Below are positions 6,852 to 43,986 of a stretch of 64,000 bases of DNA, in pieces. The position numbers and the translations under genes were made by a program. Origin of the DNA: Candidatus Woesearchaeota archaeon (GTDB lineage: Archaea; Nanobdellota; Nanobdellia; Woesearchaeales; ARS49). The notes under the pieces were generated by a model that saw only the letters and a program-made list of their open reading frames with translations, did not search any database and was not told where the DNA came from. Position 1 is the stretch's first letter, and the number at the start of each line of letters is the position of its first letter. The DNA lies in the NCBI GenBank assembly GCA_019322895.1, contig JAHWHZ010000001.1, positions 74,220 through 138,219 on the forward strand, written 5' to 3'.

Positions 6852-6943
6852 ATGCTTTTCAATTGAAAGCAGTTATTTAAAGTTTTCTGTGCACTGGACA
6901 GGTCCGCGCAGGATTTATAAAGTCAAAAAATACCAAAGTATAC

Positions 6944-7561
6944 ATGCAATACAATACACTAACAAAACCCGAAAAAACAGCACTATTAATCGGAATGTTT
7001 GCGGGCGATGGATGTCTACCAATCAAACATAATGGAGAAGGTTATAGAAACTACCAGATTGCATTCTATAATACTAATAAAAAATATGTTACTTTATTTC
7101 ACAATTTATTCTCTCAATTATTTCAAATTGAGGGCAAAATTTTTTGCAGAAAAAGAGCTAATAAAAAGCCATTGTGGCGTTTCGAGAAATATAGTAAAAA
7201 GTTGGCAGTAAAATTTAATCAAGAATTTGAAATTCCTTTTGGAAAAAAAGCTTTGTCTGTATTTGTCCCTTCTTTTATCAAAAATGCAGATTTATCTGCC
7301 AGAAAACATTTCTTGCTTGGTTTATTGATTACAGACGGGGGCATTAGAAAAAATGGAACAATTATTTTTCATGCCGCCAGTAAAAAACTTATCGACGATA
7401 TCGGAAAATTAATGTTTGATATTTGGGAAATTAAGAAGCAAACAAAAAAATATAGGCAGGGAAAATCTCGTTCTTATCAGATAAGTTTAAATATAACTGA
7501 AAGCAGAAAGGTACTTACAGACATGCCACCGTCGCATAACCTGGTATTGCGCGGATCTTAA
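6944..7561 (+). CDS. Double-motif LAGLIDADG homing endonuclease
   Basis: Two LAGLIDADG motifs about 110 aa apart (LLIGMFAGDGCL and LLGLLITDGGI); 205 aa like I-DmoI-type enzymes. Flanked by the inverted repeat CCGCGCA (6906-6912) / TGCGCGG (7548-7554). Confidence 0.8.
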   Translation: MQYNTLTKPEKTALLIGMFAGDGCLPIKHNGEGYRNYQIAFYNTNKKYVTLFHNLFSQLFQIEGKIFCRKRANKKPLWRFEKYSKKLAVKFNQEFEIPFGKKALSVFVPSFIKNADLSARKHFLLGLLITDGGIRKNGTIIFHAASKKLIDDIGKLMFDIWEIKKQTKKYRQGKSRSYQISLNITESRKVLTDMPPSHNLVLRGS

Positions 7562-7663
7562 TCCCTCGGGGGTTAGGAGCGTAAGCCTTGAGTGATTCTT
7601 CACAAAGGATTCAGGTTAGCCCGTTCCCTTCGGGGTATCCCGGTTCAAATCCGGGCGGTGGCG
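7525..7663 (+). tRNA. tRNA-like gene, class II (long variable arm), probably intron-containing; anticodon unresolved
   Basis: Canonical T-arm CCCGG-TTCAAAT-CCGGG (7639-7655), 3' acceptor CGGTGGC plus discriminator G (7656-7663), variable-arm hairpin CCC-TTCG-GGG (7626-7635). A perfectly complementary 5' acceptor GCCACCG lies at 7525-7531, followed by a class-II-like D-arm (GCA-taacctggtat-TGC). About 50 extra nt between the D-arm and variable arm imply intron(s). A tyrosine integrase starts 45 nt downstream. Confidence 0.45.
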
Positions 7664-7707
7664 TTTAACTTTTTGGGACAAGAAATAGGCAATATTTATA
7701 TAGTAGT

Positions 7708-8955
7708 TTGTCTTTTATAGACGGTATGAAAAGAAAAATTGACATTCATGAGTATGATAAAAAATTAAAAGTTGCGATTTCTAATTTGGAAAAATCTAAG
7801 ATTAGTAAAATAAATAAAAGTGAAATTAAGAAGTATGCTGATTTTTTGTTTATGGATAATATTGGCAAGGCGAGAATTCTGAAATATGTTTCTACTTTGA
7901 AAATAGTTGCCAAGGCAATTGATAAGGATTTTAAGAAAATAACAGAAGAGGATTTGAAAAGGTTCTTGATTAAGATTCATAATAATCCTAATTTAAGTGT
8001 TTGGACTAAGGTTGATTATAATGTTTCTGTTAAGAAATTCTATAAGTGGCTTGAAGGGGATATCAAAAATAATGTTTGTCCTAAAAAAGTTAGTTGGATC
8101 AAGACAAGTATTAAGAAAAAAGACAAGCCAAAAGTTAAGAAAAGTGAATTGTTAAGAGAGGAAGATATTCAGTTGCTTTTGAAAAACGCGGATAATCCTA
8201 GAGATAAGGCTTTGATTTCTTTAGTTTGGGATACTGGTGCAAGGATTGGTGAGATTGGCGGAATGACTATTAAGCATGTTAGTTTTGAAGATAATGCTAC
8301 TTATGTTGATTTGGTTGGCAAGACAGGAAGCAGGACTTGTTTGGCTATTGAATCTACTCCTTATTTAGTTCGTTGGCTTGAGGCTCATCCTGACAGGGAA
8401 AATTCCAGTAGTCCTTTATGGTTGGATAGGAGTAATAAGTCTATGACTTATGCTGCTTTGGCTAAGGTTATTCGCAGGGCTTTTGAAAAGTCTAAGTTAA
8501 AGAAAAGGTTTAATCCTCATTTGTTTAGGCATTCTCGTGCTACTTGGTGTGCTGAGAATGGTTGGAGCAGTTATGAGATGTGCAAGCATTTTGGCTGGGA
8601 ATTAGACAGTGGTATGCCTGCGGTTTATATTAGCATGGTTGATAAGGATGTTCATAATAAGATGAAAGAGGCTTATGGATTAGATACAGAAAGAAAGCAG
8701 AAGATTGAAGAGAGGAAATTGCAGAAATGTCCTCGTTGTGAGGTTACTAATCCTAACAAAAGTAAATTCTGTTATAAATGTGGCATGGCTTTGGATACTA
8801 AGACTGCTTTGGATGTTGAGAATAAGAGAAAACTTGCTGATGATTTGATGCTTAAATTGTTAAGACAGCCTGAACTTAAAGAGGTTTTGGTTAAAAGATT
8901 AAAAGAACAGCAGTTGGATAAGCAGGTTAAGAAGATTATTGGTGGTAATGAATGA
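7708..8955 (+). CDS. Tyrosine recombinase / integrase
   Basis: Catalytic R (DTGARIGE), K (GKTGSR), HxxR (HLFRHSRATW), H and Y (AVYISM) signature; C-terminal CxxC..CxxC Zn ribbon. N-terminal region similar to the integrase at 49235-50428. Confidence 0.8.
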   Translation: MSFIDGMKRKIDIHEYDKKLKVAISNLEKSKISKINKSEIKKYADFLFMDNIGKARILKYVSTLKIVAKAIDKDFKKITEEDLKRFLIKIHNNPNLSVWTKVDYNVSVKKFYKWLEGDIKNNVCPKKVSWIKTSIKKKDKPKVKKSELLREEDIQLLLKNADNPRDKALISLVWDTGARIGEIGGMTIKHVSFEDNATYVDLVGKTGSRTCLAIESTPYLVRWLEAHPDRENSSSPLWLDRSNKSMTYAALAKVIRRAFEKSKLKKRFNPHLFRHSRATWCAENGWSSYEMCKHFGWELDSGMPAVYISMVDKDVHNKMKEAYGLDTERKQKIEERKLQKCPRCEVTNPNKSKFCYKCGMALDTKTALDVENKRKLADDLMLKLLRQPELKEVLVKRLKEQQLDKQVKKIIGGNE

Positions 8956-9098
8956 ATTATTGTCCGAATTGCGGTCATTGTTTGAAAGAAAAAGAAGTTA
9001 TTGAAGATAGTAATGAGTTGATGCAGGAACTGATTAAAGACCCAGAGTTGAAAAAGCTCATTCTTGAGAAATTATTATAATTATATATTGTATTCATG

Positions 9099-9142
9099 GC
9101 GCGCCGCCCCAAGCAAAAACGCAGTTTTTTGGGGCGGCGCGC
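9099..9142. terminator. GC-rich perfect 14-bp inverted repeat hairpin (GCGCGCCGCCCCAA-16 nt-TTGGGGCGGCGCGC), a probable terminator between convergent genes
   Basis: The arms are exact reverse complements in an AT-rich background. It sits between the integrase 3' end and the 3' end of the minus-strand regulator. Confidence 0.5.
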
Positions 9143-9190
9143 AGTTTGGATAGAAAATTTAGAAGTATGTGTGGGTGATGGAGAAATAAA

Positions 9191-9931
9191 TTATTTTGCT
9201 GTTTTCCATAATTGGAGAAAGAATTTTCTGAATTGCTCTGAGCTTTCTTCGCTTTGGATTTTTATTGCTGTAGGGGTTTCTCCCCAAGTGACCATCACTA
9301 TGTTATCTCTGAAGATGGTAAGTCCTTGAGGAAAATTAAAGTCTGTGAATCTGAGTTTTGTTTCTTGAAATTCTTTTTTAGTATAGCTCTGCTCAAATAA
9401 CTGTCTTGTTTTTGAGTTTCCCAAAAGCCGAATATCTAATTTTTTCTCTTTTCTTTTTTTAATGAAGTTCTTATAGAATACGCGTATTATTGCATTTTTG
9501 TGTTCTTCTCCACGAACGGTGAATGCCAGATATAATTCTTTTGGCTTGGCATCTACAATCAGGTTTCTTAATAGATTAAATACTGCTTTAGTGCCTTCGA
9601 ACATCTCAACTGATTGCTTTTTCTTGGCGAATTTCTGCTTTTCTAAGAGTTCAGGAATCGCTTCAGAAATTCTTTCTCTTTTTTCGTCTAAGAAAGTTAA
9701 TATTGATTTAGGGTCTGCGGCCTGATAATGCCTTTTATTCTCAATTTTCACATAAGAAACTAGGCCTTTATCCTGAAGCCTATTAAGAATTTCATATATT
9801 TTGGAGCTGGGGATTTTTGTCTTTTCCAGGATTGCACCTATTGATGTTGAGCCAAGTTCTAGCAAAGCCAAGTACACTTTAATTTCTCGTTTGGTTAATC
9901 CTATGCTTTCAAATGCTTCTATGTCTATCAT
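9191..9931 (-). CDS. TrmB-family transcriptional regulator
   Basis: N-terminal wHTH LGLTKREIKVYLALLELGSTSIGAILEKTKIPSSKIYEILNRLQDKGLV typical of TrmB; 246 aa. Confidence 0.7.
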   Translation of the reverse strand: MIDIEAFESIGLTKREIKVYLALLELGSTSIGAILEKTKIPSSKIYEILNRLQDKGLVSYVKIENKRHYQAADPKSILTFLDEKRERISEAIPELLEKQKFAKKKQSVEMFEGTKAVFNLLRNLIVDAKPKELYLAFTVRGEEHKNAIIRVFYKNFIKKRKEKKLDIRLLGNSKTRQLFEQSYTKKEFQETKLRFTDFNFPQGLTIFRDNIVMVTWGETPTAIKIQSEESSEQFRKFFLQLWKTAK

Positions 9932-10022
9932 ATTAATAACTTATATTGTTTACTTTATAAAGCTTTTGTTTTATACTCCCTTTAGGGGTAGATAAAATAT
10001 AAAAAGAACTGACGTTACTACT

Positions 10023-10586
10023 ATGTTGGAACTAATAATTACAAAACAAATGAGGCATAAAAAAATGACAGAACAGAATAACAGAGAAAAACAGATTGAA
10101 GGTATGTATTTAAGCGACGCTTTAAAAAAATATCCTAAAACAATGGAAATAGCCGATGTACTTGAATCCATACGAGAGTTAATAATTTGTGACGTCCCTT
10201 ATGGAAAGAGAGCTCACTATAATTTTTACATTCGCCAAGTAGCACCATTTGAAACAGAAAATTTTAAAGGTGTTGTCTACAAAGCAGAAAATAACGGATG
10301 GAGTATGGCTGGAACCCCCCATCAGAATTATCAACTTAGTACAATGTATTTTAAAAAAGGAGAAAGGAAACTAACAGAACTCCCACCACTAGAATATCTC
10401 GCCCTGACCGAGGAGAAATTGAAATATGCTGAGTTAGGTGAACATTCCCTTCACATAAAAGTTCTACCTCAAGACAACTTAGAAATAAAATTAATTGGTG
10501 TGAAATCAGATCATAATGATAAACCACCTTATAATAGAACATTTTTAGCAGATCTAAAAAAAGAAGAACTGGTTAAACGAGACTGA
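10023..10586 (+). CDS. Hypothetical protein
   Basis: ORF only; no motif recognised. Confidence 0.3.
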   Translation: MLELIITKQMRHKKMTEQNNREKQIEGMYLSDALKKYPKTMEIADVLESIRELIICDVPYGKRAHYNFYIRQVAPFETENFKGVVYKAENNGWSMAGTPHQNYQLSTMYFKKGERKLTELPPLEYLALTEEKLKYAELGEHSLHIKVLPQDNLEIKLIGVKSDHNDKPPYNRTFLADLKKEELVKRD

Positions 10587-10645
10587 TTGTAGATTTGGAA
10601 TAATTTCCATCTCCAAATATCTATTTCCTCATGTTAAGTATATTT

Positions 10646-10710
10646 GGGTGATGGAGAAATCCCACCAATCCAAGCCTGTTTTGGCCTTCTTTACTCCACT
10701 CCCCTAAATC
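10646..10710. repeat. Hairpin repeat element, copy B (GGGTGATGGAGAAAT...TGTTTTGGCC...CTCCACTCCCC)
   Basis: Shares a purine-rich 5' arm, a TGTTTWGGCCTT core and a complementary pyrimidine-rich 3' arm with the copies at 11398-11456 and 12510-12580. The 15-mer GGGTGATGGAGAAAT also occurs at 9173-9187. Confidence 0.55.
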
Positions 10711-10798
10711 GAGGTATATGGTTTATTCTGCAGGAATTCTGGTATTTGAAGCAGTGGAGAAAATTGACTTTAGAGGTCTTTTTGGTGGCAATTAAAAA

Positions 10799-11341
10799 TT
10801 ATTTCTCTTTTAATTCATCTATTCCTTTTATGTATCCTAATACTGTGGGCATGATTTCGGATATGATTTTCCAGCTTTTGGATGATTTTGCTCTTATTTG
10901 TGCGAATCTTAATTGTTCTTTTACTGCAATGGATTCATCGCAGTTTTCATTTTTTAAATAATGATAGGCATGTCCTATTAATTCATGATCCATGCCGCTT
11001 TGGTTATAAATTTCATAGAATTCTTCGGGTGTGATTTTTGCATAGGCAGTCATTACTTTATCAATGATATTCTCAGGCATACCTAATGAACTAAGCCCAA
11101 CTCTTACTATTTCCGGAGAATCTGATGCAATATTTTCCCTATATACTTCAATTAATACTTTTCCTGTAGAATAATGTGTAAATCCATACCATCCTCCAAT
11201 ATCACTTGGAGATGCTCTTCTGGGAATTACATCAAGATAAACTTTATCTAGGTTTAACACAGAAGTATCCAACCCTAGCTTATCAGCAAGCAAGACAGCA
11301 TTCTTTTTCCAGCGTTGTAAATCTCTTATTGTAATAAGCAT
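10799..11341 (-). CDS. Hypothetical protein
   Basis: ORF only. Confidence 0.3.
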   Translation of the reverse strand: MLITIRDLQRWKKNAVLLADKLGLDTSVLNLDKVYLDVIPRRASPSDIGGWYGFTHYSTGKVLIEVYRENIASDSPEIVRVGLSSLGMPENIIDKVMTAYAKITPEEFYEIYNQSGMDHELIGHAYHYLKNENCDESIAVKEQLRFAQIRAKSSKSWKIISEIMPTVLGYIKGIDELKEK

Positions 11342-11397
11342 ATTATCTAATAAAAGACAAGTCTTATTTTAAAGATTTTTCTATTTTTTAATAGTTT

Positions 11398-11456
11398 AGG
11401 GGGTGGAGAAATTTCATCAAAAGGAGCTTGTTTAGGCCTTTTTCACTCCCCCCCTC
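11398..11456. repeat. Hairpin repeat element, copy C (GGGGGTGGAGAAAT...TGTTTAGGCCTTTTTCACTCCCCCCCTC)
   Basis: See copy B. About 57 nt upstream of the start of the minus-strand gene 10799-11341. Confidence 0.55.
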
Positions 11457-11556
11457 AAAATGGCAATAAACGCCTTAATACTCTTGAAATCAGGGCTTAG
11501 AAGAGTTGAGGGCCTCCTACTTTAGAGGGGTTTTTGGTGGGAATCAGAATTGCTAA

Positions 11557-12504
11557 TTACTTCTCTTCTTCTCTCACAATCATAATAGAAAAAAGCGATC
11601 CTAAGCAAGATTTAATTCTTCTTATGATACTACACAAATGATGTAAAATACAATCATCTTTATCGTTTGCTTCTAATGAAGAATATAGTTCTTTTGTTTT
11701 CTCTTGAATTTCGCTATGTAATTTGGAGCAATCTTCAATTTTTAATGCTTTTTCTGTTTCTTGTTTCAAGAATAAATTTTTGAAATTAGTAAAGGAATCG
11801 TTTGTTTCTTTGAATAGTTTAAGAGTTTTTTTATCAATTTTTTTCTGTTTTAAGTAATATTTACAAATACTATAATACTCATCACCTATATTTTCTAGTT
11901 CTTTAATGATATAAAAAAGAAAAGGAATTTGGTCTATATCTTCATAACCGACTTTAGTTAGTATTCTTTCACAAAAGTTTGCATTTCTATTTATTATGCT
12001 TTCTTTGGTCATCGCCATTTTGATTTCATTGATATTTTTGGTTTTTATACTCTCAAGACTATCTTTTGAAAATTCCGATAAACTAAAAAGCAACTTTTTT
12101 AGAATACTTTTAAATTGTGATTGATCTATCATGGAAATAGATTCTAAAACACAGAAGTTTTTCTTATTTTCCGTAATATCTAATCCGTTTAAATCTGATC
12201 CAACAACTTTATCAATTGCATTATAAATCTCTGCATTATTATATGCGAATTCTATATGGTCATAGCCCGCGCGGTATAATGCTGCAGTATAGTGCATTAT
12301 TGTAGGGCAAGAAATCTTATCAGAAACAGTGATTGTTTTAGATAGAATCTCTTTTCTTCCTCTGCCCCCAACGATTAGATAATGGCCTTCTTCAACTATT
12401 TGTATTTCGTCTCCTTTATGAAGTTTATTTTTGTTAATCCACTTTATTGGAAGTGTTATTGTTAATGAGGAGCTTCCGTGTTGTACAATTTTTCTTGTTG
12501 CCAT
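11557..12504 (-). CDS. AbrB/SpoVT swapped-hairpin domain fused to a PhoU-like domain (archaeal phosphate-uptake-regulator-like protein)
   Basis: N-terminal IVQHGSSSLTITLPIKWINKNKLHKGDEIQIVEEGHYLIV is AbrB/MazE-like; helical PhoU-like remainder. A paralog lies at 31122-32036. Confidence 0.55.
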   Translation of the reverse strand: MATRKIVQHGSSSLTITLPIKWINKNKLHKGDEIQIVEEGHYLIVGGRGRKEILSKTITVSDKISCPTIMHYTAALYRAGYDHIEFAYNNAEIYNAIDKVVGSDLNGLDITENKKNFCVLESISMIDQSQFKSILKKLLFSLSEFSKDSLESIKTKNINEIKMAMTKESIINRNANFCERILTKVGYEDIDQIPFLFYIIKELENIGDEYYSICKYYLKQKKIDKKTLKLFKETNDSFTNFKNLFLKQETEKALKIEDCSKLHSEIQEKTKELYSSLEANDKDDCILHHLCSIIRRIKSCLGSLFSIMIVREEEK

Positions 12505-12509
12505 AAAAA

Positions 12510-12580
12510 TAAGGAGAGGTTGTTTTGGTGAAACAAATGAACAAACTAAACCAGAGTTTAGAGGTCATTCCCTCTCCCTT
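12510..12580. repeat. Hairpin repeat element, diverged copy D (AAGGAGAGG...TGTTTTGG...CCCTCTCCCTT)
   Basis: Same architecture as B and C; overlaps the 5' leader of gene 11557-12504. Confidence 0.4.
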
Positions 12581-12915
12581 AGTACTATAAAACGCACGCA
12601 TATATAAATGTTTCTATCCAATAAACAAATAAATATAAAATACACATTTTCTAAAAGTTATGCATAATAAACTGCAAAAATACATATATTCATTGTACTT
12701 TATATTATTTAACAAGAACTGAAGGGACACAAGCTTCCTTGGTTCGGAGGTGATAAAAAATGAAAAAAGCACAAAAACAAAAAATGAGATGGGGTATGAA
12801 ATCTTCGGTAATAGATGGATACATATTCGATCGATTTGGAGTTAGTTTTAGACAAATGGGGGCAATAGCCTAAAAAGGGTAGCGTACTACATTACGCTAG
12901 GAGGAAATAAAAAAA

Positions 12916-14229: not shown

Positions 14230-14352
14230 GGTGATGAAAATATTTTTTCCACCTTCTTTTTTATCAACAAACACACACAGTTTTATAAAAGATGTTAGCT
14301 TTTTAAGGAACTGTAAAGCCACATTTAAAAAAAACTGAATGAGGATTCAAAA

Positions 14353-15801
14353 ATGAAACTCCTAACCAAATCCAAATATCTAATTGGCTTGCAGTGCCCT
14401 AAATATCTTTGGATTGTTTTTAATGATTCTAAGCAGATTCCTAAGGCAGGGGTTCCTGATGAGTTTAAGTTTAAGGAAGGTGAGAAAGTAGGGGAGTTGG
14501 CTAAGAAGTTGTTTCCTGATGGGATTGATTTGCCTGCTGATGATTTTGTTAAGAATCTTGAGGAGTCTGAAAAGGCTTTGAAAGAGAGAAAGCCTTTGTT
14601 TGAGGCTGGTTTTAAGTTTGGGAATATTTTTTCTAGGGCAGATGTTATTGTTCCTGTTGGTGATGAGTGGGATATTGTTGAGGTTAAATCTGCTACTAAG
14701 GTTAAGGATATTAATTATCATGATGTTGCTTTTCAGAAGTATGTATATGAAAGTAAGGGTCTTAAGATTAGGAAGTGTTTTTTATTGCATTTGAATAGTA
14801 AATATATTAGAAAGGGAGAGTTAGATTTAAAGGGTTTATTTGTTAAGGAAGATATTACTTCTAAGGTTAGTTTGCATTTTTTAGGTATTAAGGGGAGGAT
14901 TGATTCTATGTTTAAAATTATTTCTTCTGAGAAAATGCCTGAAATGAAGGTTGGGGCGCATTGTAGTGATCCTTACAAATGTCCTGTTTGTCATTGTTGG
15001 GAAGAGTTGCCTGAGAATCATGTTTTTTGTTTGTATCGTGGCGGAAAGTTAAGTTGTAAATTATTTGAAGAAGGAATTGAAGCAATTGGAGATATTCCCG
15101 AAGATGTTAAATTAAATGATAAACAAGGAATACAAAGAGATTGTGCTCTTTCTGGAAAACCCCATATACACAAAGAAAGTATTAAACATTTCTTAAACAC
15201 ATTAAAATATCCGTTATATTATCTTGATTTTGAAACTTTTTCAACAGCGATTCCTATGTTTGACGGATTAAAGACTTATTCTCAAGTTCCTTTTCAGTTC
15301 AGTTTGCATGTTGTTGAGAAAGAAGGAAGTAAACCAAAACATTATGAGTTTCTTTATAATGGAAATGAAGATCCACGAGAGGATTTTATTTTGGCTTTGA
15401 AAAAGGTTTTAGGAGATAAGGGTTCTGTTGTTGTTTATAATCAAGTTTTTGAGATTAATAGATTAAAAGATTTAGGAGAACACTTTCCTAAATATAAGAA
15501 ATGGGTAGATTCTGTTTTATCTAGAATTGTTGATTTATTAGTTCCGTTCAGGAATTTTTCATATTATAATCCAAAACAAGAAGGTTCTGCCTCAATCAAG
15601 AAAGTTCTACCTGCGCTCTGCAGTAAAAGCTATAAAGGAATGGGTATTACAGATGGAGGAACCGCATCTGTAAAGTTCTTTAATATGGCTTATGGAGAAT
15701 GTGAAAATAAGGATAAAATCAGGCAGGACTTGTTAAAATATTGCGAACTAGATACTTTGGCAGAGGTTTGGATTGTTGAGGAATTGGGAAAGCTCATTTA
15801 A
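14353..15801 (+). CDS. Two-domain nuclease: N-terminal Cas4/RecB-like PD-(D/E)xK nuclease with Fe-S cysteines fused to a C-terminal DEDD/RNase-H-like exonuclease-type domain (DUF83 + DUF2779-like)
   Basis: N-terminal Cys (LQCPKYLW), a D..EVK block (DVIVPVGDEWDIVEVKSATK), QxxxY (FQKYVY) and a C-terminal Cys cluster CSDPYKCPVCHC match the Cas4 motifs. The second half has YYLDFETFS, an acidic DxE-type motif. Confidence 0.5.
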   Translation: MKLLTKSKYLIGLQCPKYLWIVFNDSKQIPKAGVPDEFKFKEGEKVGELAKKLFPDGIDLPADDFVKNLEESEKALKERKPLFEAGFKFGNIFSRADVIVPVGDEWDIVEVKSATKVKDINYHDVAFQKYVYESKGLKIRKCFLLHLNSKYIRKGELDLKGLFVKEDITSKVSLHFLGIKGRIDSMFKIISSEKMPEMKVGAHCSDPYKCPVCHCWEELPENHVFCLYRGGKLSCKLFEEGIEAIGDIPEDVKLNDKQGIQRDCALSGKPHIHKESIKHFLNTLKYPLYYLDFETFSTAIPMFDGLKTYSQVPFQFSLHVVEKEGSKPKHYEFLYNGNEDPREDFILALKKVLGDKGSVVVYNQVFEINRLKDLGEHFPKYKKWVDSVLSRIVDLLVPFRNFSYYNPKQEGSASIKKVLPALCSKSYKGMGITDGGTASVKFFNMAYGECENKDKIRQDLLKYCELDTLAEVWIVEELGKLI

Positions 15802-15844
15802 AAAAAGAAGTATTTATAAAAGAAATCAAATTAAATATGTTAAT

Positions 15845-16618
15845 ATGATTAGCGATAAATTAAAAGAAGAAATAAAAGAAGAGTTAATTAGGAAAATTAA
15901 GAATAAAATTGCGAATTATGATTTTTCTAAGAAATCAGGAAATCCATTTATAGATATTGTTTTTGGCAAATATTCTAATATCAAATCATTTATTCATGGA
16001 ACTGCAACTATGCTGGGCAGTTATTATGAAATACTTGCTAGAAAAATTGCACAAGAAAATTCCAATTTTATTGAAGCAAAAAAAATTGTGCTTATTGGCA
16101 AAATATCAAATTCGGAAAGTGCAGTTATTAAACATTTAGTTAAGGATTTAGAAGAAAAAAATATTGCTGCAGATCATGATGCCGAAATAAAATCAGTTTA
16201 TTCCGCAGGAGCTACAAATATTAGAGATACGCGAATAACTATCGACTTGTTTTTAAAAGATAAAAAAGGAAAAGAATATTTTATCGAAATGAAAGGCCCG
16301 GATCCTAATAAGAAAGAAGTTCGCGCAGCAAAAGAAGACTTATTAAATGTAATTGCTATGAAAAAAAGAGAAATTTCTATTAAATCTTTCGATAAAAAGG
16401 TTCGAGTTATTTTTGGAGTATATTATAATAATGAAGACGGGGACTATAATAATTGGAAAGTTTCTCCGATGTTCGAAAGAGGACAAGATTTATTAGTTCA
16501 AGAGGAATTTTGGGATCTTTTAGGTGGTAAAGGGACATATAAAGAATTATTGAATATTCTTGAGCAAGTAAAAGAAAAGGTATTCCCAATTATTGAAAAA
16601 ACAATAAATAAATTTTAG
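15845..16618 (+). CDS. Putative type II restriction endonuclease (PD-(D/E)xK); the longest ORF starts at 15773 but overlaps the upstream gene
   Basis: Convergent with and overlapping (4 nt) the DNA methyltransferase; candidate ID..EMK catalytic block (ITIDLF...EYFIEMKGP). Confidence 0.35.
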   Translation: MISDKLKEEIKEELIRKIKNKIANYDFSKKSGNPFIDIVFGKYSNIKSFIHGTATMLGSYYEILARKIAQENSNFIEAKKIVLIGKISNSESAVIKHLVKDLEEKNIAADHDAEIKSVYSAGATNIRDTRITIDLFLKDKKGKEYFIEMKGPDPNKKEVRAAKEDLLNVIAMKKREISIKSFDKKVRVIFGVYYNNEDGDYNNWKVSPMFERGQDLLVQEEFWDLLGGKGTYKELLNILEQVKEKVFPIIEKTINKF

Positions 16619-18222
16619 TTTTTTTTCTGCATATGAAATATTATTTCTGCGTAGGGTTGTCTGTCGCGTTCTGTTCGGTTTAGTACGGGTCTTTTGAATT
16701 TATTTACTATTTTTAATCCGCTTTTTTCGGCGATAATCGGATATAGATTAAATTTATCGTTTGCTACTATAAAAAAGTGTCCATCGTCTTTGACAAATTT
16801 GCTGATATTTGTTAAAACTTGACTGATTCCTTCGATATATTCTTTTCTGGCTTCTGCGCCGCGGCCTTTGTATAATGGTCCTATTTCTTGTTTGTCTCTT
16901 CGGTTTATTTTGAATAGTTCGTATGCATATGCATGTTGTTCGTGATAGTCTATTTGACCTACATACGGGGGAGACGTAAATATTCCTGCGATTTTGTTGT
17001 TTTTTAGGATTTTATATAGTGCTGGATTTTGATTTTTGACTTGTTCTAGTATGTTTATTGTTCTTGAATCGTCAGAAAGTACTGTTTGTTGTGTTTTTTT
17101 CTTTAATTTAGAAAAGTCATTTAGTCTTGTTAGTGTATCGTAGGTGTTTCTTCGCAAATGTTTAAGTATGCTGTTAATGGGGGTGCATATTTTTTTGTGT
17201 TTTCGGCAATAGTAAGGCCCTCTTTGTGGTTCTTTAAGTGTTGCTAGATCCGAATGTGTTGTTGCTCTGCATGATCTAGCAGTTCTACTCAATACTATTT
17301 TCATTATATTTCTTATTTGTTTATCATTAATCGTATTTATCAGCTTTAGGTAAAAATAAAGTTCTTGTTGAATTCTTTTTGAAAACCAGGTATTTAAGAA
17401 AGAGGACATTTTTTCTTGGCTGGCAAGATTAATTTTGTTTTTGGTGCCATTGTTTGTCAGGAATTTTTCATTTTTCTTCAGGAATTCTAAAAATCTTTCT
17501 TGCGCATATTTTTCTTCAGATATTTTTCCTTTAGATACTTTGTGTTTAAATTCTGGATTAGGAAAATGTTTCTGATTAAATTCGTATAATTTTTCTTTTA
17601 ATTGTAAATCATAATCGTCATCAAATGTTCTTTCACTGAATTGTGCAGTTCTTAGCAATGCTTCTTGCAATTTATTACTTAATCTTTTTATGTCATAATT
17701 ATCTAATTTAACTTTTGATAATAGACAGTTGAATTCAGAAATATCTATACCTATTGAATGCATTCCTAATTCAGATGCCTGAATTAATGTTGTCCCGCTC
17801 CCCATAAACGGATCTAGTATTATATCGCCTTTCTTGAAAAATATTTGTTTTTTAAATGTATTAATGTGATTATCTAAGAAGTATTCTACTAATTGAGGAA
17901 TAAATTTTCCTTTGTAAGGATGTAATCTATGAACATGTTTTGTTGTATCTGCTTCGCGCAAATGATCAAAGGATAACGCCCAGTTTAAATCATTTCCAAG
18001 ATATTTTTTCCAGGCATTTTGTTTTTTAATTACGATATCATCGTAATATCTTTTTAATTCATCTTTATTAACAATTATTTTTCTTTGATTATCTACATAT
18101 TTACGAATTTTAGCATATTGAACCAAGTAGGTTATATTTGAAGGGGTGACAGGTTTATTTAAATAATTGGTTGCCCAAGTAGAAGCCTCTTTTATTGAGA
18201 TACAATTATTGATTTTTATCAC
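16615..18222 (-). CDS. DNA methyltransferase (N6-adenine/N4-cytosine amino-MTase)
   Basis: SAM motif I DPFMGSGTT followed by ..LG..IGID..EF; catalytic motif IV TSPPY (IFTSPPYVGQIDY); 535 aa. Confidence 0.8.
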   Translation of the reverse strand: MIKINNCISIKEASTWATNYLNKPVTPSNITYLVQYAKIRKYVDNQRKIIVNKDELKRYYDDIVIKKQNAWKKYLGNDLNWALSFDHLREADTTKHVHRLHPYKGKFIPQLVEYFLDNHINTFKKQIFFKKGDIILDPFMGSGTTLIQASELGMHSIGIDISEFNCLLSKVKLDNYDIKRLSNKLQEALLRTAQFSERTFDDDYDLQLKEKLYEFNQKHFPNPEFKHKVSKGKISEEKYAQERFLEFLKKNEKFLTNNGTKNKINLASQEKMSSFLNTWFSKRIQQELYFYLKLINTINDKQIRNIMKIVLSRTARSCRATTHSDLATLKEPQRGPYYCRKHKKICTPINSILKHLRRNTYDTLTRLNDFSKLKKKTQQTVLSDDSRTINILEQVKNQNPALYKILKNNKIAGIFTSPPYVGQIDYHEQHAYAYELFKINRRDKQEIGPLYKGRGAEARKEYIEGISQVLTNISKFVKDDGHFFIVANDKFNLYPIIAEKSGLKIVNKFKRPVLNRTERDRQPYAEIIFHMQKKN

Positions 18223-18482
18223 CCTCTCTTTAATTTATTATTTGTCTTTTGTTATTTATATATGTTACGTGTATATGTCCAGTGAAGCTTCTTTATATAT
18301 TTTTCTACTTCAAAATCGGAAAATTTACGACATTTTAGTGACATTTTCCGAGACAGAATCTCTTATTTTATCTTCCTCCAGCCATTCGTTTATTAGGAAT
18401 ATCCATTCTGGGAGCTTTTTTCTGAGCTCTTGTTCGTATTCATTGGCTTGGATGATTTTTGTTCACCTTAAGGAATTTAAAG

Positions 18483-18515
18483 GCTTCATGGCCATGGAAG
18501 GAGCCATGAAGCTTT
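18483..18515. promoter_or_regulatory. Hairpin/palindrome GCTTCATGGC-N13-GCCATGAAGC containing CCATGGCCATGG, in the divergent intergenic region
   Basis: 10-bp perfect inverted repeat between the MTase start (18222, minus) and the 19008 operon (plus). Confidence 0.3.
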
Positions 18516-19007
18516 TGCATGGAGGGCAAAAATACACTGTGGTTCGTGGGTTTTCCTTGATTAAGCATGGTAATTCTATTGTTTTCCAAGTTTATATATT
18601 CTAGCGACTTTTCGTGGACACAAAGTTTTTTCATAATTTTTCTTATTGTTTTCCTGATTTAAATATTATTGCGGACTTTTGTAGGACTTTTTTCATTATA
18701 CTGTTTTTCAACAATATTAAACTAAGTCTAAAACTTATCCGATTTCGGACAAAAATATCCATTTTCAGACAAAAAATTAGAAGATGATTAAGTATATAAA
18801 TTCCCTACTCAGTTTTTTTCCGGTAAAAGTGAATAGGGGGTTTATAAAGAGCGCACATCAGCCACTGGACAAATGACCGAAAAATATAAATACGACCTTA
18901 TTAATCTAACATCATGTGTATTAATGATGACTGATTTAATATAATAATAACATTTTTATATCAGTTCTGTTTTATTGCACAAATCTAGGTTTGGAGGGAG
19001 ATGAAAA

Positions 19008-19565
19008 ATGTATGAAACCATAAAAGATAAAATAAAAGAAGTTATTGAAATTACCCAAAAATGTCCTGAAAACTTACAGGAAAAATGTTTTGAATTACTG
19101 ATGTTACCTTTGCTTCAGGAAAAAGTGACTCCGTCAACTGTACAAGAATCAGAAGAAAAAGAGTCTGTTGTAACAGAAGTTGATTTTAAAATACCCTTAG
19201 ATGTACGAGCATTCTTAGAACAGTATGGTGTTTCTGAAGAAAAATTGCAAAAATTATTCCTAATGCAAGGAGAAGAAGTCAAAGAAAAGTTCAATATTAC
19301 TACTTCCAAAAAGGCAAGAGCTCAAATCCAGCTTGCATTATTAAGTGCTTTGCAAAATGCTTTGAAAGGCGAAAAATTTCAATTTTCAATTGCAACTGTT
19401 AAGCAACAATGCGAAGATCATAAAGCGTACGACTTGCCCAATTTCAGAGGAATTTTCAAAAAGAACCAAGGACTGTTCAAGAATCTTGATGATGATGAAA
19501 ATGTCGAATTATCACCCTCTGGAAAAGAAAAACTAGCTGAGACAATTCTTGAAGTAGCAAAATGA
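19008..19565 (+). CDS. Hypothetical protein, first gene of a three-gene module
   Basis: RBS GGAGGG upstream; 4-nt overlap (ATGA) with the next gene. Confidence 0.3.
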   Translation: MYETIKDKIKEVIEITQKCPENLQEKCFELLMLPLLQEKVTPSTVQESEEKESVVTEVDFKIPLDVRAFLEQYGVSEEKLQKLFLMQGEEVKEKFNITTSKKARAQIQLALLSALQNALKGEKFQFSIATVKQQCEDHKAYDLPNFRGIFKKNQGLFKNLDDDENVELSPSGKEKLAETILEVAK

Positions 19566-20395
19566 AGGACAACATTCTTAGAGGATTAGAAGGAATAGAA
19601 TCTTCTCTCAGAAGTCTTAAAGGGCTTGTAAATTTAAACAAGTCTGAATTTGTGTCCAAAGTTTCTATCAAGGGACTTTCAAAAGAAATCGCTGTAAAGT
19701 GGTTTGAAAGTATTGAAAAACCGCTAAGCAGTTCTTTTTCTTTGCAAGAAGACACAATGAAAAAATATCAGGACAATTTCGATAAACTTTTAAAGCTCTC
19801 AATACGCAAAAATGCAAGAAAAAGCACATACTTAAAGCAAATAGACTTATTATTAAGCAATTTCAAGAATGACCTGATTCAGCCAGTATTGAAATATACG
19901 CCAGTGACATCAAAACTCAATAACTGGTCAGGCATATTTAAAGATGTAACAGAAGGAGAAAAAGAATATTTAAATGAAGCAATAAAATGTGCTGATTTAA
20001 ATTTATTTAGAGCATCCATTGTCTTGGGATGGTGTGCAGTTATTGATAGAATTCATAGAGTTATCGAAATGAGAGGATTTAAGGAATTTAGCGAAAAAAG
20101 TGAGGAAATGCGCAAGAAGAAGGATGGTCGTTATAAAAGGTGTAATAAAGCATTTTCAATAAATTCTTTAAACGAATTACGTGTCCAAGTATTTGATAAA
20201 GACCTTTTGTGGATCCTAGAATACATGAACTTAATCGATCCTAACCAACATGACCGGCTTTCATTATGCTTTACTATGAGAAATAACTGCGCGCACCCTG
20301 GAGATGCAGGAATATCGCCAGAAAATCTCCTTTCTTTTTATTCAGACGTAGACAGCATAATATTTAAAAATCCTAAGTTTTTACTCAGTAAATAA
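19562..20395 (+). CDS. HEPN-domain protein (Rx4HxxD type), putative RNase toxin / Abi-like
   Basis: C-terminal MRNNCAHPGD fits the HEPN R-x4-H motif; predicted all-helical. Confidence 0.4.
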   Translation: MKDNILRGLEGIESSLRSLKGLVNLNKSEFVSKVSIKGLSKEIAVKWFESIEKPLSSSFSLQEDTMKKYQDNFDKLLKLSIRKNARKSTYLKQIDLLLSNFKNDLIQPVLKYTPVTSKLNNWSGIFKDVTEGEKEYLNEAIKCADLNLFRASIVLGWCAVIDRIHRVIEMRGFKEFSEKSEEMRKKKDGRYKRCNKAFSINSLNELRVQVFDKDLLWILEYMNLIDPNQHDRLSLCFTMRNNCAHPGDAGISPENLLSFYSDVDSIIFKNPKFLLSK

Positions 20396-20434
20396 TACCC
20401 TACATTGCTAGTTTAAAAGAAAGAGAAAAACTAA

Positions 20435-21022
20435 GTGAGTTTATTTAGAATGAACGAAGAACAAATAACACAAGAAGAATACATACTAGAAGTATTAAAA
20501 GATGACTTAAATACGGGAAGATACCCTATTTTACAAAAATCGCCATCACTTATTACAAATGCAAATCTTCTGTCTGAAGATGAAAATCAAAAGAGATTAA
20601 AGTTAATACAAAATAACGGCGCCTTTGGCAGAATCTTTGAGATTCGTAATTTTGTTGCTTTTTATAAATCACAGATTAAACAGGAAGAGTTTCTAGAACT
20701 ATTTTGGTGTCCTAAGGGTAATGAAACAGACCAAGATGGAATAGATTTAATGAGCGACAATACTAGAAATATTGCTAAGTTAATTGCTTTTCTCAAAAAA
20801 GAATATTTAGGAACTGATCCAAAAATAATACAACAAATCAAGAGTTTTTTTAATGAAGAAATAAGGAAAGATAAAGAAATCCGACTCTTCTTATTTGAAA
20901 CATCCCGTAGTAAATTAATAATAGATGGGAACCATCGGGCGGGAGCAATAGTAAAGTCAATATCACAGGAAAATATAGAAAATGTATTTCCCATTACTGT
21001 GTATGTCGCAAAAATATCCTAA
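20435..21022 (+). CDS. ParB/Srx-like nuclease-domain protein
   Basis: IIDGNHRAGAI matches the ParB N-terminal DGxHR motif; 195 aa. Confidence 0.4.
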   Translation: MSLFRMNEEQITQEEYILEVLKDDLNTGRYPILQKSPSLITNANLLSEDENQKRLKLIQNNGAFGRIFEIRNFVAFYKSQIKQEEFLELFWCPKGNETDQDGIDLMSDNTRNIAKLIAFLKKEYLGTDPKIIQQIKSFFNEEIRKDKEIRLFLFETSRSKLIIDGNHRAGAIVKSISQENIENVFPITVYVAKIS

Positions 21023-21120
21023 ATCCCGTCCCTTTCGGTTTAACGTGGGGCGGTGGCGTCTATATTTCTACCTGAAAACTGCTTAAAAAAAATCCCGAAT
21101 CTTTATAAACAATCTCAGAT

Positions 21121-40638: not shown

Positions 40639-40897
40639 ATATTTTCAATATAAACAAGCAATAGAATATAAATGTTACGCCCCAGCTGGGCATTAAGGAA
40701 AACCCTTAAATTATTGTTTTAGATTATACACGGCCAACACGATAACAGCTATTAAGGGTGGAAGCACCCAATAAAGCCAGCCTCCTGGCCAGCCCAACTT
40801 ATAACTTCCGAAAGCACACACATATAAAAATATTGTTATTAAAAACCAATAAATCGTTTGTTTAAGCCAATATTTAAGTTTATTATTCATCGCTCTG

Positions 40898-43974: not shown

Positions 43975-43986
43975 TATGTAATTCGT

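What the first reader, a model, noticed from the sequence alone, without database searches (positions are those of the whole stretch)
7525..21059. Integrated defence island (element 1), 13.4 kb, at a tRNA-like gene with 12-bp direct repeats
A tyrosine integrase starts 45 nt after a tRNA 3' end (T-arm plus acceptor). The terminal 12-mer GGGCGGTGGCGT recurs at 21048, preceded by a degenerate copy of the variable-arm hairpin. Everything between is accessory: two regulators, the HerA/nuclease pair, R-M, the HEPN/ParB module and a hairpin repeat family. The 12-bp core is short, so the far boundary is tentative.
Basis: seen in the sequence. Interest (0 to 1): 0.6.

Follow-up and report, generated by a model that had tools for sequence, protein, structure and literature searches.

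The report
Defence island inserted at tRNA-Ser
A 13.4-kb mobile element carrying an integrase, a restriction-modification system and other likely anti-virus genes has inserted at the end of a serine tRNA gene in a tiny (Woesearchaeota/DPANN) archaeon; it is a well-supported example of an already familiar kind of genomic island.

Summary
The "tRNA-like gene" (7525-7663) is a real tRNA-Ser(UGA) gene that tRNA finders miss because it has two introns (7555-7584, 7593-7617). A tyrosine integrase gene starts 44-62 nt after it. The 12-mer GGGCGGTGGCGT, which covers the end of the tRNA, occurs only at 7653 and 21048. It brackets a block of 31.9% GC inside roughly 40% GC host DNA.

Related Woesearchaeota genomes keep the order TFB, tRNA-Ser, (kinase), Kef without this insert. 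A 97%-identical integrase sits at the same junction in another genome with different cargo. Four distant relatives of the integrase, and a second element in this window, are each bounded by 13-16-bp repeats of a tRNA 3' end.

The cargo is a TdeIII-type type II restriction-modification pair, a conserved HerA-like ATPase plus DUF2779 nuclease pair, two regulators, a widespread two-gene cassette (185 aa plus AF_1680 with an invariant Rx4H motif), and a rare protein with a DGNHR motif. The HEPN and ParB labels rest on motifs only. No virion or replication genes were found.

Verdict: a new member of a known kind (a tRNA-targeting integrative element with defence cargo), of modest interest.

The parts
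7525..7663 (+). tRNA-Ser(UGA) gene, the integration target. Exons are 7525-7554, 7585-7592 and 7618-7663. Intron 1 is 7555-7584 (between tRNA positions 29/30). Intron 2 is 7593-7617 (canonical 37/38 position).
   Evidence: Neither ARAGORN nor the Rfam tRNA model calls the gene. With the two inserts removed, the 85-nt sequence is called tRNA-Ser(tga) with a full cloverleaf. That sequence is nearly identical to the intronless tRNA-Ser(UGA) of L017. L033, L038 and L055 have the same two-intron architecture. Intron 2 forms a canonical bulge-helix-bulge motif and intron 1 a relaxed one (worked out by hand from the sequence; a cloverleaf-constrained fold reaches -48.3 kcal/mol).
7653..7664 (+). attL core GGGCGGTGGCGT. 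It covers the last 3 nt of the T stem, the acceptor 3' strand, the discriminator G, and one further T.
   Evidence: The same junction, GGGCGGTGGCGT|TTAACTTTATGGGAC, is seen in L055. GGGCGGCGGCGT|TTAACTTCATGGGA is seen in L056 and L057.
7726..8955 (+). Tyrosine integrase (409 aa from the ATG; the alternative TTG start at 7708 gives 415 aa) with a C-terminal zinc ribbon.
   Evidence: Pfam Phage_integrase 1.6e-22 and DZR 5.3e-05. phrog_1 integrase 7.7e-29. The closest solved structure is archaeal XerA, 4a8e, at 1.6e-08. It is about 33% identical to the integrases of Archaeoglobi pleolipoviruses.
9099..9142 (.). G+C-rich, near-perfect hairpin between the convergent integrase and TrmB genes; probably a terminator.
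   Evidence: -33.7 kcal/mol, z = -4.86.
9191..9931 (-). TrmB-family transcription regulator.
   Evidence: Pfam TrmB 3.9e-18.
10023..10586 (+). ORF of 187 aa, function unknown.
   Evidence: No match in Pfam, PADLOC, NCBIfam or PHROGs.
10636..11555 (.). Two copies of a roughly 165-nt repeat (10636-10800 and 11395-11555) bracketing an unknown 180-aa ORF (10799-11341, minus strand). A 25-nt fragment of the repeat lies at 9163-9187.
   Evidence: (D10, D19). Copies of the repeat also occur in the L055 element.
11557..12504 (-). AbrB/MazE-like protein with a PhoU domain; a regulator.
   Evidence: Pfam PhoU 2.1e-05 and MazE_antitoxin 5.8e-05.
12916..14229 (+). HerA/FtsK-type P-loop ATPase (DUF87).
   Evidence: Pfam DUF87 3.5e-08. 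PADLOC mad8 1.8e-19 over the full length of the model. Homologues are again followed by a DUF2779 or PD-(D/E)XK gene in L090, L091 and L092.
14353..15801 (+). DUF2779 protein: an N-terminal Cas4-like PD-(D/E)XK nuclease region plus a C-terminal RNase-H-like region.
   Evidence: Pfam DUF2779 8.8e-43 and RNase_H_2 1.1e-04. PADLOC Cas4 5.1e-05. The same two-domain reading is given in PMC13621843.
15845..16618 (+). Type II restriction endonuclease, TdeIII family.
   Evidence: Pfam RE_TdeIII 6e-40. PADLOC REase_II 2.3e-13.
16615..18222 (-). Type II N6/N4 DNA methyltransferase, convergent with the endonuclease gene and overlapping it by 4 nt.
   Evidence: PADLOC MTase_II 1.2e-214. Pfam N6_N4_Mtase 4.8e-18.
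18254..18850 (.). Backbone segment with almost no coding sequence, shared with the L055 element. It contains a 67-nt tandem duplication (18577-18615 and 18644-18682) and a 64-aa ORF (18440-18634, minus strand).
   Evidence: 84.7-88% identical to L055 8239-8900 in two BLAST segments; L055 has three copies of the unit. Repeat D6. No Rfam match.
19008..20395 (+). Two-gene cassette: a 185-aa protein (19008-19565) overlapping by 4 nt a 277-aa AF_1680-family protein (19562-20395) that carries an invariant R240-x4-H245 motif.
   Evidence: PF27235 in the precomputed annotation. The same pair is adjacent in Nitrosopumilus (L084), Edaphobacter (L085), L086 and L087, and the upstream partners are homologous. 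R240 and H245 are invariant in 35 sequences. The AlphaFold model has pLDDT 93 and is all-alpha, with no significant PDB match; Csm6 appears at E about 1.6.
20450..21022 (+). 190-aa protein with invariant DGNHR and WCPKG motifs; possibly a ParB/sulfiredoxin-like fold.
   Evidence: Only three homologues were found. One of them sits between hsdS and hsdM of a type I R-M operon. The AlphaFold model has pLDDT 76, and Foldseek gives only weak, recurring sulfiredoxin hits at E 0.7-6.
21023..21059 (+). attR: a degenerate, partly deleted copy of the tRNA-Ser 3' exon (21023-21047) followed by the core GGGCGGTGGCGT (21048-21059).
   Evidence: (D11). The host kinase gene starts 61 nt (TTG 21121) to 73 nt (ATG 21133) after the core, and GC rises to 0.416 from 21001.

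Best explanation
Window 7665-21059 is one integrative genetic element in the chromosome of a Candidatus Woesearchaeota (DPANN) archaeon.

Integration. The element's tyrosine integrase recombined an attP core, GGGCGGTGGCGT, with the identical sequence at the 3' end of the host tRNA-Ser(UGA) gene. That sequence is the T-stem 3' end, the acceptor 3' strand, the discriminator and one further base. The crossover lies in the last 12 bp, so the two-intron tRNA gene at attL stays intact. The second core copy, preceded by the element's own degenerate tRNA-like arm, ends up 13.4 kb away, directly in front of the original downstream neighbour, a Ser/Thr kinase gene. The integrase gene faces away from the tRNA, starting 44-62 nt after the core.

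Contents. The backbone consists of the integrase and a conserved segment at 18.25-18.85 kb. The rest is exchangeable cargo dominated by nucleic-acid-targeting genes:
- a type II R-M pair (TdeIII-like endonuclease plus N6/N4 methyltransferase);
- a HerA-like ATPase plus DUF2779 double nuclease;
- a 185-aa plus AF_1680 (Rx4H) two-gene cassette;
- a DGNHR-motif protein;
- two transcription regulators.

Status of the claims.
- Shown: the boundaries, the tRNA identity, absence of the block from syntenic sites in relatives, recurrence of the same integrase and junction with other cargo, and the family-wide pattern of short cores.
- Inferred: that the element can still excise, and that the non-R-M modules act in defence.
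For: - Repeat: exact 12-bp repeat found only at the two ends; 0.00 expected by chance.
- Composition: GC 0.319 inside against 0.395 and 0.402 outside, with the step at both ends.
- Empty syntenic sites: L023, L033 and L045, with TFB 97%, Kef 83% and kinase 60% identical.
- tRNA identity: tRNA-Ser(UGA) once the two introns are removed.
- Same element elsewhere: L055 has a 97% identical integrase and the same attL junction in a genome with 98% identical TFB. It shares only 7636-9165, the 165-nt repeats and 18254-18850 with the window. Its remaining cargo differs and includes two other methyltransferases.
- Closer relatives: L056 and L057 (81-83% integrase) sit at tRNA-Ser(GCU). L056 carries a reverse transcriptase, an AAA_5 ATPase and a nucleotidyltransferase.
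- Distant relatives: integrases at about 33-35% identity in L063, L066, L070 and L072 are each bounded by 13-16-bp repeats of a tRNA 3' end, and each element has lower GC than its flanks.
- Second element in the window: 14-bp repeat at 50507-50520 and 40677-40690, next to an integrase at 49235-50428.
- Integrase domains and R-M assignments.
- Precedent for a 14-bp core at a tRNA 3' end: SNJ2 (PMC5861418).
Against: - No excised circle and no empty site from the same population was seen. All contigs with identical flanking proteins (L001-L007) carry the island or break inside it.
- The empty-site comparison is at the level of gene order only. Intergenic DNA is too diverged to align base by base.
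- The same 12-mer is left as footprints downstream of tRNA-Ser genes in many DPANN genomes, including L023 at this very site. The distal copy could therefore predate the present cargo.
- Defence roles of the HerA-like/DUF2779 pair, the AF_1680 cassette and the DGNHR protein are unproven. HEPN and ParB have no significant profile or fold support.
- No replication or transfer function was identified, so how the element spreads is unknown.
Confidence: 0.86

Rival explanations
1. The region is an old, fixed and possibly composite remnant. The distal 12-mer would be a footprint of an earlier integration at this hot spot. The present genes would have accumulated by successive insertions and deletions, so the block is no longer one mobile unit.
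For: Arrays of two or three copies of the same 12- to 20-mer lie downstream of tRNA-Ser genes in L018, L019, L020, L023, L026, L027, L039 and L053. L023 has a second copy 697 bp from the tRNA and about 90 nt before the kinase gene. The cargo differs between the window and the 97%-integrase element L055. Repeats bracket ORF 10799-11341, which suggests an internal cassette insertion.
Against: The integrase ORF is full length with the catalytic region aligned to XerA. The two core copies are identical. No internal att-like copy with two or fewer mismatches exists. GC is uniformly low across the whole block. The distal core lies at the native distance from the kinase gene, which is what any single integration would produce.
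Confidence: 0.1
2. The region is an integrated plasmid or conjugative-element remnant, with the HerA/FtsK-type ATPase acting as a DNA-transfer ATPase rather than a defence protein.
For: Weak hits to AAA_10 (4.8e-06) and to a TraC-type model. A distant member of the integrase family (L070) carries a rolling-circle Rep, so it is plasmid- or virus-like.
Against: No Rep, relaxase, pilin or other transfer gene was found. The best full-length match of the ATPase is the defence protein model mad8, at 1.8e-19. The ATPase is consistently paired with a nuclease gene.
Confidence: 0.03
3. The region is a provirus or defective provirus, for example pleolipovirus-like, because the nearest annotated integrases belong to such viruses.
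For: The integrase is about 33% identical to those of Geoglobus and Archaeoglobus pleolipoviruses. The ATPase has a partial PHROG 'terminase large subunit' hit at 2.3e-10. The size is similar to pleolipovirus genomes.
Against: Only the integrase is shared with GacPV1, with no VP3- or VP4-like proteins. No PHROG structural family matched. No relative of the integrase was found in IMG/VR. About half of the coding capacity is R-M and nuclease genes.
Confidence: 0.01

Closest known systems
SNJ2-type integration modules of haloarchaeal pleolipoviruses and related mobile elements (PMC5861418)
   Same: An archaeal tyrosine integrase. The target is the 3'-distal part of a tRNA gene. The identical core is short (14 bp in SNJ2, against 12 bp here and 13-16 bp in relatives). 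The tRNA is restored. Related integrases carry unrelated cargo. The nearest annotated relatives of this integrase are pleolipoviral, at about 33% identity.
   Different: The host is a DPANN archaeon, not a haloarchaeon. The integrase gene starts next to the core and points away from it, whereas in SNJ2-type modules the core lies downstream of the 3' end of int. No Orf2/Orf3-like accessory genes are evident. There is a C-terminal zinc ribbon. There are no virion or Rep genes. Sequence membership in the SNJ2 family was not tested.
Bacterial tRNA-associated genomic or defence islands and cargo-carrying integrative elements (for example tycheposons, P4-like islands); comparison from general knowledge
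   Same: A tyrosine recombinase next to a tRNA gene, direct repeats made from the tRNA 3' end, atypical GC, a variable cargo rich in R-M and other defence genes, and repeated use of the same site.
   Different: The host is archaeal. The target tRNA has two introns. The core is very short. The conserved backbone is tiny: the integrase plus a roughly 600-bp segment.
Type II R-M systems of the TdeIII type
   Same: The endonuclease matches RE_TdeIII (6e-40). The adjacent convergent N6/N4 methyltransferase matches a PADLOC type II methyltransferase model over its full length (1.2e-214).
   Different: Specificity is unknown. The pair lies directly downstream of the HerA-like/DUF2779 pair. The longest ORF of the endonuclease (TTG 15773) overlaps the DUF2779 gene, although the ATG used in public gene calls (15845) does not.
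HerA-nuclease pairs (HerA-NurA in archaeal end resection; HerA-associated defence systems; MADS mad8)
   Same: A FtsK/HerA-type ATPase encoded next to a nuclease. The ATPase matches the mad8 model at 1.8e-19.
   Different: The partner is DUF2779 (Cas4-like plus RNase-H-like), not NurA, Sir2 or DUF4297. MAD6 and MAD7, which the MADS detection model requires, are absent, so this is not MADS.
Archaeal tRNA genes with multiple or non-canonical introns (general knowledge: known from Thermoproteales, Nanoarchaeota and other DPANN)
   Same: Bulge-helix-bulge introns at 37/38 and at a non-canonical position (29/30). Standard tRNA finders miss the gene.
   Different: Nothing fundamental. It is relevant here because it hid the identity of the integration target.

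Membership tests
tRNA-targeting integrative element / genomic island | Encodes a tyrosine recombinase | tested here: met
   Phage_integrase 1.6e-22. XerA 4a8e at 1.6e-08, with the ARxxE and HxxRH regions aligned. phrog_1 at 7.7e-29.
tRNA-targeting integrative element / genomic island | One end lies within the 3' end of a tRNA gene, and that gene remains intact | tested here: met
   The core 7653-7664 is the last 11 nt of tRNA-Ser(UGA) plus 1 nt. The spliced gene folds as a full cloverleaf.
tRNA-targeting integrative element / genomic island | Direct repeat of the tRNA end at the far boundary, beyond chance | tested here: met
   Two exact copies, 0.00 expected. Flanking degenerate tRNA similarity. 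The same pattern is seen in 4 related elements and in a second element in the window.
tRNA-targeting integrative element / genomic island | Absent from the syntenic site in related genomes | tested here: met
   L023, L033 and L045 lack the block between tRNA-Ser and kinase/Kef. This is a gene-order comparison, not a base-level one.
tRNA-targeting integrative element / genomic island | Composition differs from the host | tested here: met
   GC 0.319 against 0.395 and 0.402.
tRNA-targeting integrative element / genomic island | Excision to a circle with restoration of attB | not testable with these tools
   No read data. The attP junction was not found in IMG/VR.
SNJ2-type integrase family | Short core (about 14 bp) identical to the tRNA 3'-distal region | tested here: met
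   12 bp here and 13-16 bp in relatives. SNJ2 has 14 bp (PMC5861418).
SNJ2-type integrase family | Integrase sequence groups with Int-SNJ2, and Orf2/Orf3-like accessory genes are co-transcribed with int | not tested
   No SNJ2 sequence was compared. The only link is about 33% identity to the integrases of Archaeoglobi pleolipoviruses. No small genes follow int in the same orientation; a hairpin and a convergent TrmB gene follow instead.
Type II restriction-modification system | Adjacent endonuclease and DNA methyltransferase genes with family-level matches | tested here: met
   RE_TdeIII 6e-40, REase_II 2.3e-13 and MTase_II 1.2e-214. The genes are convergent and overlap by 4 nt.
MADS (methylation-associated defence system) | MAD6, MAD7 and MAD8 all present (mandatory in the authors' detection model, 10.1101/2023.03.30.534895) | tested here: not met
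   Only a mad8-like hit, plus a weak mad3 P-loop hit on the same protein. No other island protein matched any mad model.
HEPN superfamily (protein 19562-20395) | Rx4-6H motif conserved in the family | tested here: met
   R240 and H245 are invariant in 35 sequences.
HEPN superfamily (protein 19562-20395) | Significant profile or fold similarity to known HEPN domains | tested here: inconclusive
ParB/sulfiredoxin-like fold (protein 20450-21022) | DGxHR-type motif and ParB/Srx fold | tested here: inconclusive
   DGNHR is invariant in 4 sequences. No profile hit. Foldseek gave only weak, repeated sulfiredoxin hits at E 0.7-6 on a model of pLDDT 76.
Pleolipovirus provirus | VP3-like and VP4-like structural genes | tested here: not met
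   tblastn of all island proteins against GacPV1 matched the integrase only. No PHROG structural hits.
Archaeal intron-containing tRNA | Cloverleaf after intron removal, and a bulge-helix-bulge motif at each splice site | tested here: met
   ARAGORN calls tRNA-Ser(tga) on the spliced sequence. Intron 2: C32-G35 pair with the CAGG of the intron, flanked by the 3-nt bulges AG|U and UU|A. Intron 1: a GCGC/GCGU helix flanked by GG|A and AA|G, with the outer helix missing, so the motif is relaxed. Both were read from the sequence by hand and are compatible with the constrained fold. Splicing itself was not tested.

The most novel reading that the evidence does not exclude
The island could be one representative of an undescribed family of integrative elements specific to DPANN archaea. 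The family would be defined by an integrase with a C-terminal zinc ribbon, 12-16-bp cores at the extreme 3' end of (often intron-bearing) tRNA genes, and a minimal backbone. Such elements would shuttle defence cargo between the tiny genomes of these symbionts. Two of the cargo modules could be new defence or toxin systems: the HerA-like ATPase plus DUF2779 double nuclease, and the 185-aa plus AF_1680 (invariant Rx4H) cassette that is spread across archaea and bacteria.
Probability: 0.35. Interest if true: 0.5.

Novelty: new member of a known kind. Interest (0 to 1): 0.3.

Why it matters
Woesearchaeota and other DPANN archaea have very small genomes and depend on hosts, and little is known about their mobile elements and immunity. 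This locus shows, with comparative support, that they carry classical tRNA-targeted integrative elements with exchangeable anti-virus cargo. It also shows that one tRNA-Ser site is used again and again across the group.

In practical terms:
- It provides a precise attL, attR and predicted attP for experiments.
- It shows that multi-intron tRNA genes can hide integration targets from standard annotation.
- It points to two compact, uncharacterised gene pairs as candidates for defence-system screens.

None of this changes the current picture of how genomic islands work.

Tried and rejected
1. ARAGORN and Rfam (gathering and E-value modes) on 7300-7800 found no tRNA.
2. I first read the 5' half as tRNA-Leu(UAA) with one intron. 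I rejected this because no matching 3' anticodon-stem strand exists. Comparison with 47 loci sharing the 3' end showed tRNA-Ser(UGA) with two introns.
3. I considered that the LAGLIDADG ORF (6944-7561) might lie in a large tRNA intron. I rejected this because the complete tRNA lies at 7525-7663, and the ORF simply reads through the tRNA promoter and 5' exon.
4. I looked for an empty site in the same population using the exact TFB and kinase proteins. All contigs carry the island or break inside it, at window positions of about 6956, 9462 and 17906.
5. An IMG/VR scan with the integrase found no relative, and a scan with the predicted attP junction found no match.
6. Pfam (down to E = 10), NCBIfam, PADLOC and PDB sequence searches gave nothing for the 185-, 277- and 195-aa proteins and for ORFs 10023 and 10799.
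8. An Rfam scan inside the island gave nothing at E <= 0.1.
9. The sigma-70 promoter scan is not informative for an archaeon: 54 sites against 58 expected.
10. MADS membership was rejected because only mad8 matched.
11. Literature searches for AF_1680/PF27235 gave no relevant paper.

Full report
**Observation.** The 12-mer GGGCGGTGGCGT occurs exactly twice in the 64-kb window, at 7653-7664 and 21048-21059. This holds even when one mismatch is allowed, and dinucleotide-preserving shuffles give 0.00 matches. With three mismatches allowed the hits are at chance level, and none with two or fewer mismatches lies inside the island. GC content drops from about 0.40 to about 0.31 between roughly 7 kb and 21 kb. 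It is 0.319 for 7665-21047, against 0.395 on the left and 0.402 on the right. ORF 7708-8955 is a tyrosine recombinase (Phage_integrase 1.6e-22) with a C-terminal zinc ribbon. Public gene calls start it at the ATG at 7726.

**The 'tRNA-like gene' is a real tRNA.** ARAGORN and Rfam do not call anything at 7525-7664. A scan of one genome per species for the 22-nt T-arm/acceptor sequence returned 47 loci, mostly from Woesearchaeota/Nanoarchaeota MAGs plus MAGs labelled Methanosarcinales. Wherever ARAGORN called a gene at the match, it was tRNA-Ser.

Comparison with these loci shows the structure of the window gene. It is tRNA-Ser(UGA) interrupted by a 30-nt insert (7555-7584, between tRNA positions 29/30) and a 25-nt insert (7593-7617, at the canonical 37/38 position). 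L033, L038 and L055 have the same architecture, with different but still self-complementary intron hairpins.

Removing both inserts gives an 85-nt sequence that ARAGORN calls tRNA-Ser(tga) with a complete cloverleaf. It is almost identical to the intronless gene of L017.

Read from the sequence, intron 2 forms a canonical bulge-helix-bulge motif. C32-U33-U34-G35 pair with the intron's CAGG, flanked by the 3-nt bulges AG|U and UU|A. Intron 1 forms a relaxed version: a GCGC/GCGU helix, bulges GG|A and AA|G, and a 10-bp intron hairpin. A cloverleaf-constrained fold is feasible at -48.3 kcal/mol. Splicing itself is inferred, not shown.

**Host and empty sites.** The left neighbour of the tRNA is an archaeal TFB gene. 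NCBI names the AF_1680 protein encoded in the island as KY346_00540 of a Candidatus Woesearchaeota archaeon. tblastn of the window proteins against the tRNA-Ser loci found conserved synteny without the insert:

| Locus | Source | Gene order and identity to the window |
|---|---|---|
| L023 | Woesearchaeota FT1_425 | TFB (97%), tRNA-Ser(UGA), about 790 bp, kinase (60%), Kef-type transporter (83%) |
| L033 | Woesearchaeota Yap100.bin1.6 | TFB (97%), small ORF, two-intron tRNA-Ser(UGA), Kef (83%), next gene (73%) |
| L045 | — | MFS, TFB, tRNA-Ser, Kef |

It is a gene-order comparison only, because the intergenic DNA is too diverged to align. Contigs from the same population (L001-L007, 99.9-100% identical) all carry the island or end inside it, so no polymorphic empty site was seen.

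**The integrase family and the short core.** A metagenome scan found 29 relatives of the integrase.
- L055 has a 97% identical integrase, with a 98% identical TFB nearby. It sits at the same junction, GGGCGGTGGCGT|TTAACTTTATGGGAC.
- L055 shares with the window only 7636-9165, copies of the roughly 165-nt repeat, and 18254-18850.
- The rest of the L055 cargo differs and includes an N6_N4 methyltransferase and an Eco57I/TaqI_C-type methyltransferase.
- L056 and L057 (81-83%) sit at tRNA-Ser(GCU) with the junction GGGCGGCGGCGT|TTAACTTCATGGGA.
- L056 carries a reverse transcriptase, an AAA_5 ATPase and a nucleotidyltransferase.

Among more distant relatives (about 33-35% identity) with enough downstream sequence, four stand out. 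L063, L066, L070 and L072 are bounded by exact repeats of 15, 13, 13 and 16 bp that are the 3' end of the adjacent tRNA. These elements are 10.2, 9.5, 4.5 and 4.0 kb long, and all have lower GC than their flanks. L070 carries a rolling-circle Rep.

The window itself contains a second element of the same design. An intron-containing tRNA lies at 50508-50634 (minus strand), and I read its anticodon as GUC from the Rfam alignment. An integrase lies at 49235-50428 (26% identical to the first one). A 14-bp repeat, CCCAGCTGGGGCGT, occurs at 50507-50520 and 40677-40690, and GC there is 0.343.

A 12-bp core is therefore normal for this family. It matches the experimentally verified 14-bp core of the pleolipovirus SNJ2 at a tRNA-Met 3' end (PMC5861418). 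The nearest annotated integrases are those of Archaeoglobi pleolipoviruses at about 33% identity. Only the integrase is shared with them.

**attR and the hot spot.** The sequence left of the distal core aligns as a degenerate, partly deleted copy of the tRNA 3' exon (D11, 77). In the standard integration geometry this is the element's own attP arm. The same 12- to 20-mer recurs one to three times within 60-1,150 bp downstream of tRNA-Ser genes in many DPANN loci: L018, L019, L020, L023, L026, L027, L039 and L053.

In L023 the second copy lies 697 bp from the tRNA and about 90 nt before the kinase gene. This is the same place relative to the kinase as in the window, where the distance is 61-73 nt. 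That is what independent integrations at the tRNA end would produce, and it marks the site as a recurrent target. It also leaves room for the rival view that the distal copy predates the present cargo.

**Cargo.**
- **Regulators.** A TrmB regulator and an AbrB/PhoU regulator.
- **ATPase-nuclease pair.** A DUF87/HerA-type ATPase whose best full-length match is the PADLOC model mad8, at 1.8e-19. It is followed by a DUF2779 protein (8.8e-43) with a Cas4-like N-terminal region. PMC13621843 gives the same two-nuclease reading. The ATPase-nuclease adjacency recurs in L090 and L091 (72% identity) and, with a PD-(D/E)XK gene, in L092. MADS requires MAD6, MAD7 and MAD8 (10.1101/2023.03.30.534895). Only mad8 matches here, so this is not MADS.
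- **R-M pair.** A TdeIII-type endonuclease (6e-40) and a convergent type II methyltransferase (PADLOC 1.2e-214) form a standard R-M pair.
- **AF_1680 cassette.** The 185-aa and 277-aa genes overlap by 4 nt. The 277-aa protein belongs to PF27235 (AF_1680). The same pair, with homologous partners, is found in Nitrosopumilus, Edaphobacter and other contigs. R240 and H245 (Rx4H) are invariant. The AlphaFold model is confident (pLDDT 93, all-alpha) but has no significant PDB neighbour. HEPN is therefore a motif-level suggestion.
- **DGNHR protein.** The last gene (190 aa) has invariant DGNHR and WCPKG motifs and only three homologues. One of them sits inside a type I R-M operon. Foldseek gives only weak, repeated sulfiredoxin hits. 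It is not a conserved partner of AF_1680.
- **What is missing.** No PHROG structural family, Rep or transfer gene was found.

**Mechanism.** The integrase recombined the attP core with the last 11 nt of the tRNA gene plus one base. The tRNA gene remains intact at attL, and the second core copy sits in front of the native downstream DNA.
- Shown: the repeat, the junctions, the synteny, the composition, and the recurrence across the integrase family.
- Inferred: current mobility, since the integrase is intact and the cores identical but no circle was observed. The reconstructed attP would read …GGTTTAACGTG-GGGCGGTGGCGT-TTAACTT…, with imperfect inverted TTTAACG/CGTTTAA motifs flanking the core. 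These could be core-type binding sites, but that is speculative.
- Also inferred: defence roles for the non-R-M modules.

**Verdict.** The finding is real and its interpretation is supported. It is a new member of a known kind (a tRNA-targeting integrative element with defence cargo), here in a DPANN archaeon. Interest is modest. The more novel aspects are the possible DPANN-specific element family and two uncharacterised gene pairs.

Noticed in passing
window 6944-7561 (+): A free-standing LAGLIDADG homing-endonuclease-like ORF (LAGLIDADG_3, 5.7e-13) sits directly upstream of the tRNA-Ser gene. Its last 25 or so codons are read from the tRNA promoter (TTTAAATATAA) and the 5' exon, and its stop codon lies in intron 1. 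About 635 bp (6888-7522) replace 42 bp in L055, and the ORF is absent in L033, L023 and L045. A homologue (70%/52% identity in two segments, perhaps frameshifted) occupies the same position in L038. A distant LAGLIDADG ORF precedes tRNA-Ser(GCU) in L056. One metagenome contig (L003) ends exactly at its start, which suggests polymorphism.
   Followed up: partly
L055 1033-1328; L045 and L042 (reverse strand): In these relatives the tRNA-Ser(UGA) gene is interrupted between the variable arm and the T arm by about 190 nt. That insert contains a complete second tRNA-Ser gene with its own acceptor stem. In L055 the insert is flanked by a 13-nt inverted repeat (CAAAAAAATCCGT / ACGGATTTTTTTG). L047 has a 42-nt intron at the same position. 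This is either a tRNA nested in a tRNA intron or an att-site relic.
   Followed up: no
window 40677-50634 (-): A second integrative element of the same design. It has an intron-containing tRNA (50508-50634; I read the anticodon as GUC), an integrase at 49235-50428 (26% identical to the first), a 14-bp direct repeat CCCAGCTGGGGCGT at 50507-50520 and 40677-40690, and GC 0.343.
   Followed up: partly
L018, L019, L020, L023, L026, L027, L039, L053: Two or three copies of the tRNA-Ser 3'-end core (12-20 nt) lie within 60-1,150 bp downstream of tRNA-Ser genes in many DPANN genomes. They look like footprints or miniature elements from repeated integration. L015, L040 and L053 also have partial 5' copies upstream of the gene.
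   Followed up: partly
window 10636-10800, 11395-11555, 9163-9187; L055 3811-4245: A roughly 165-nt repeat brackets the unknown ORF 10799-11341. It recurs in several copies in the related element L055. Its predicted hairpins are weak (z about -2) and it has no Rfam match.
   Followed up: partly
window 18254-18850: A segment with almost no coding sequence, conserved with the L055 element (84.7-88% in two BLAST segments). It has a 67-nt unit in two tandem copies here and three in L055. On the minus strand each unit begins a short ORF (MKK...). It may be a regulatory or replication-related part of the backbone.
   Followed up: partly
window 19008-20395; L084-L087: The 185-aa plus AF_1680 (PF27235) gene pair is a compact cassette spread across Woesearchaeota, Nitrosopumilus and Acidobacteria. 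In Edaphobacter it lies next to integrases, and in L087 next to a methyltransferase. No publication on the family was found.
   Followed up: partly
L063 about 9760-9925: The tRNA targeted by this distant integrase relative appears to carry a long insert inside the T loop, that is, an intron at a non-canonical position.
   Followed up: no
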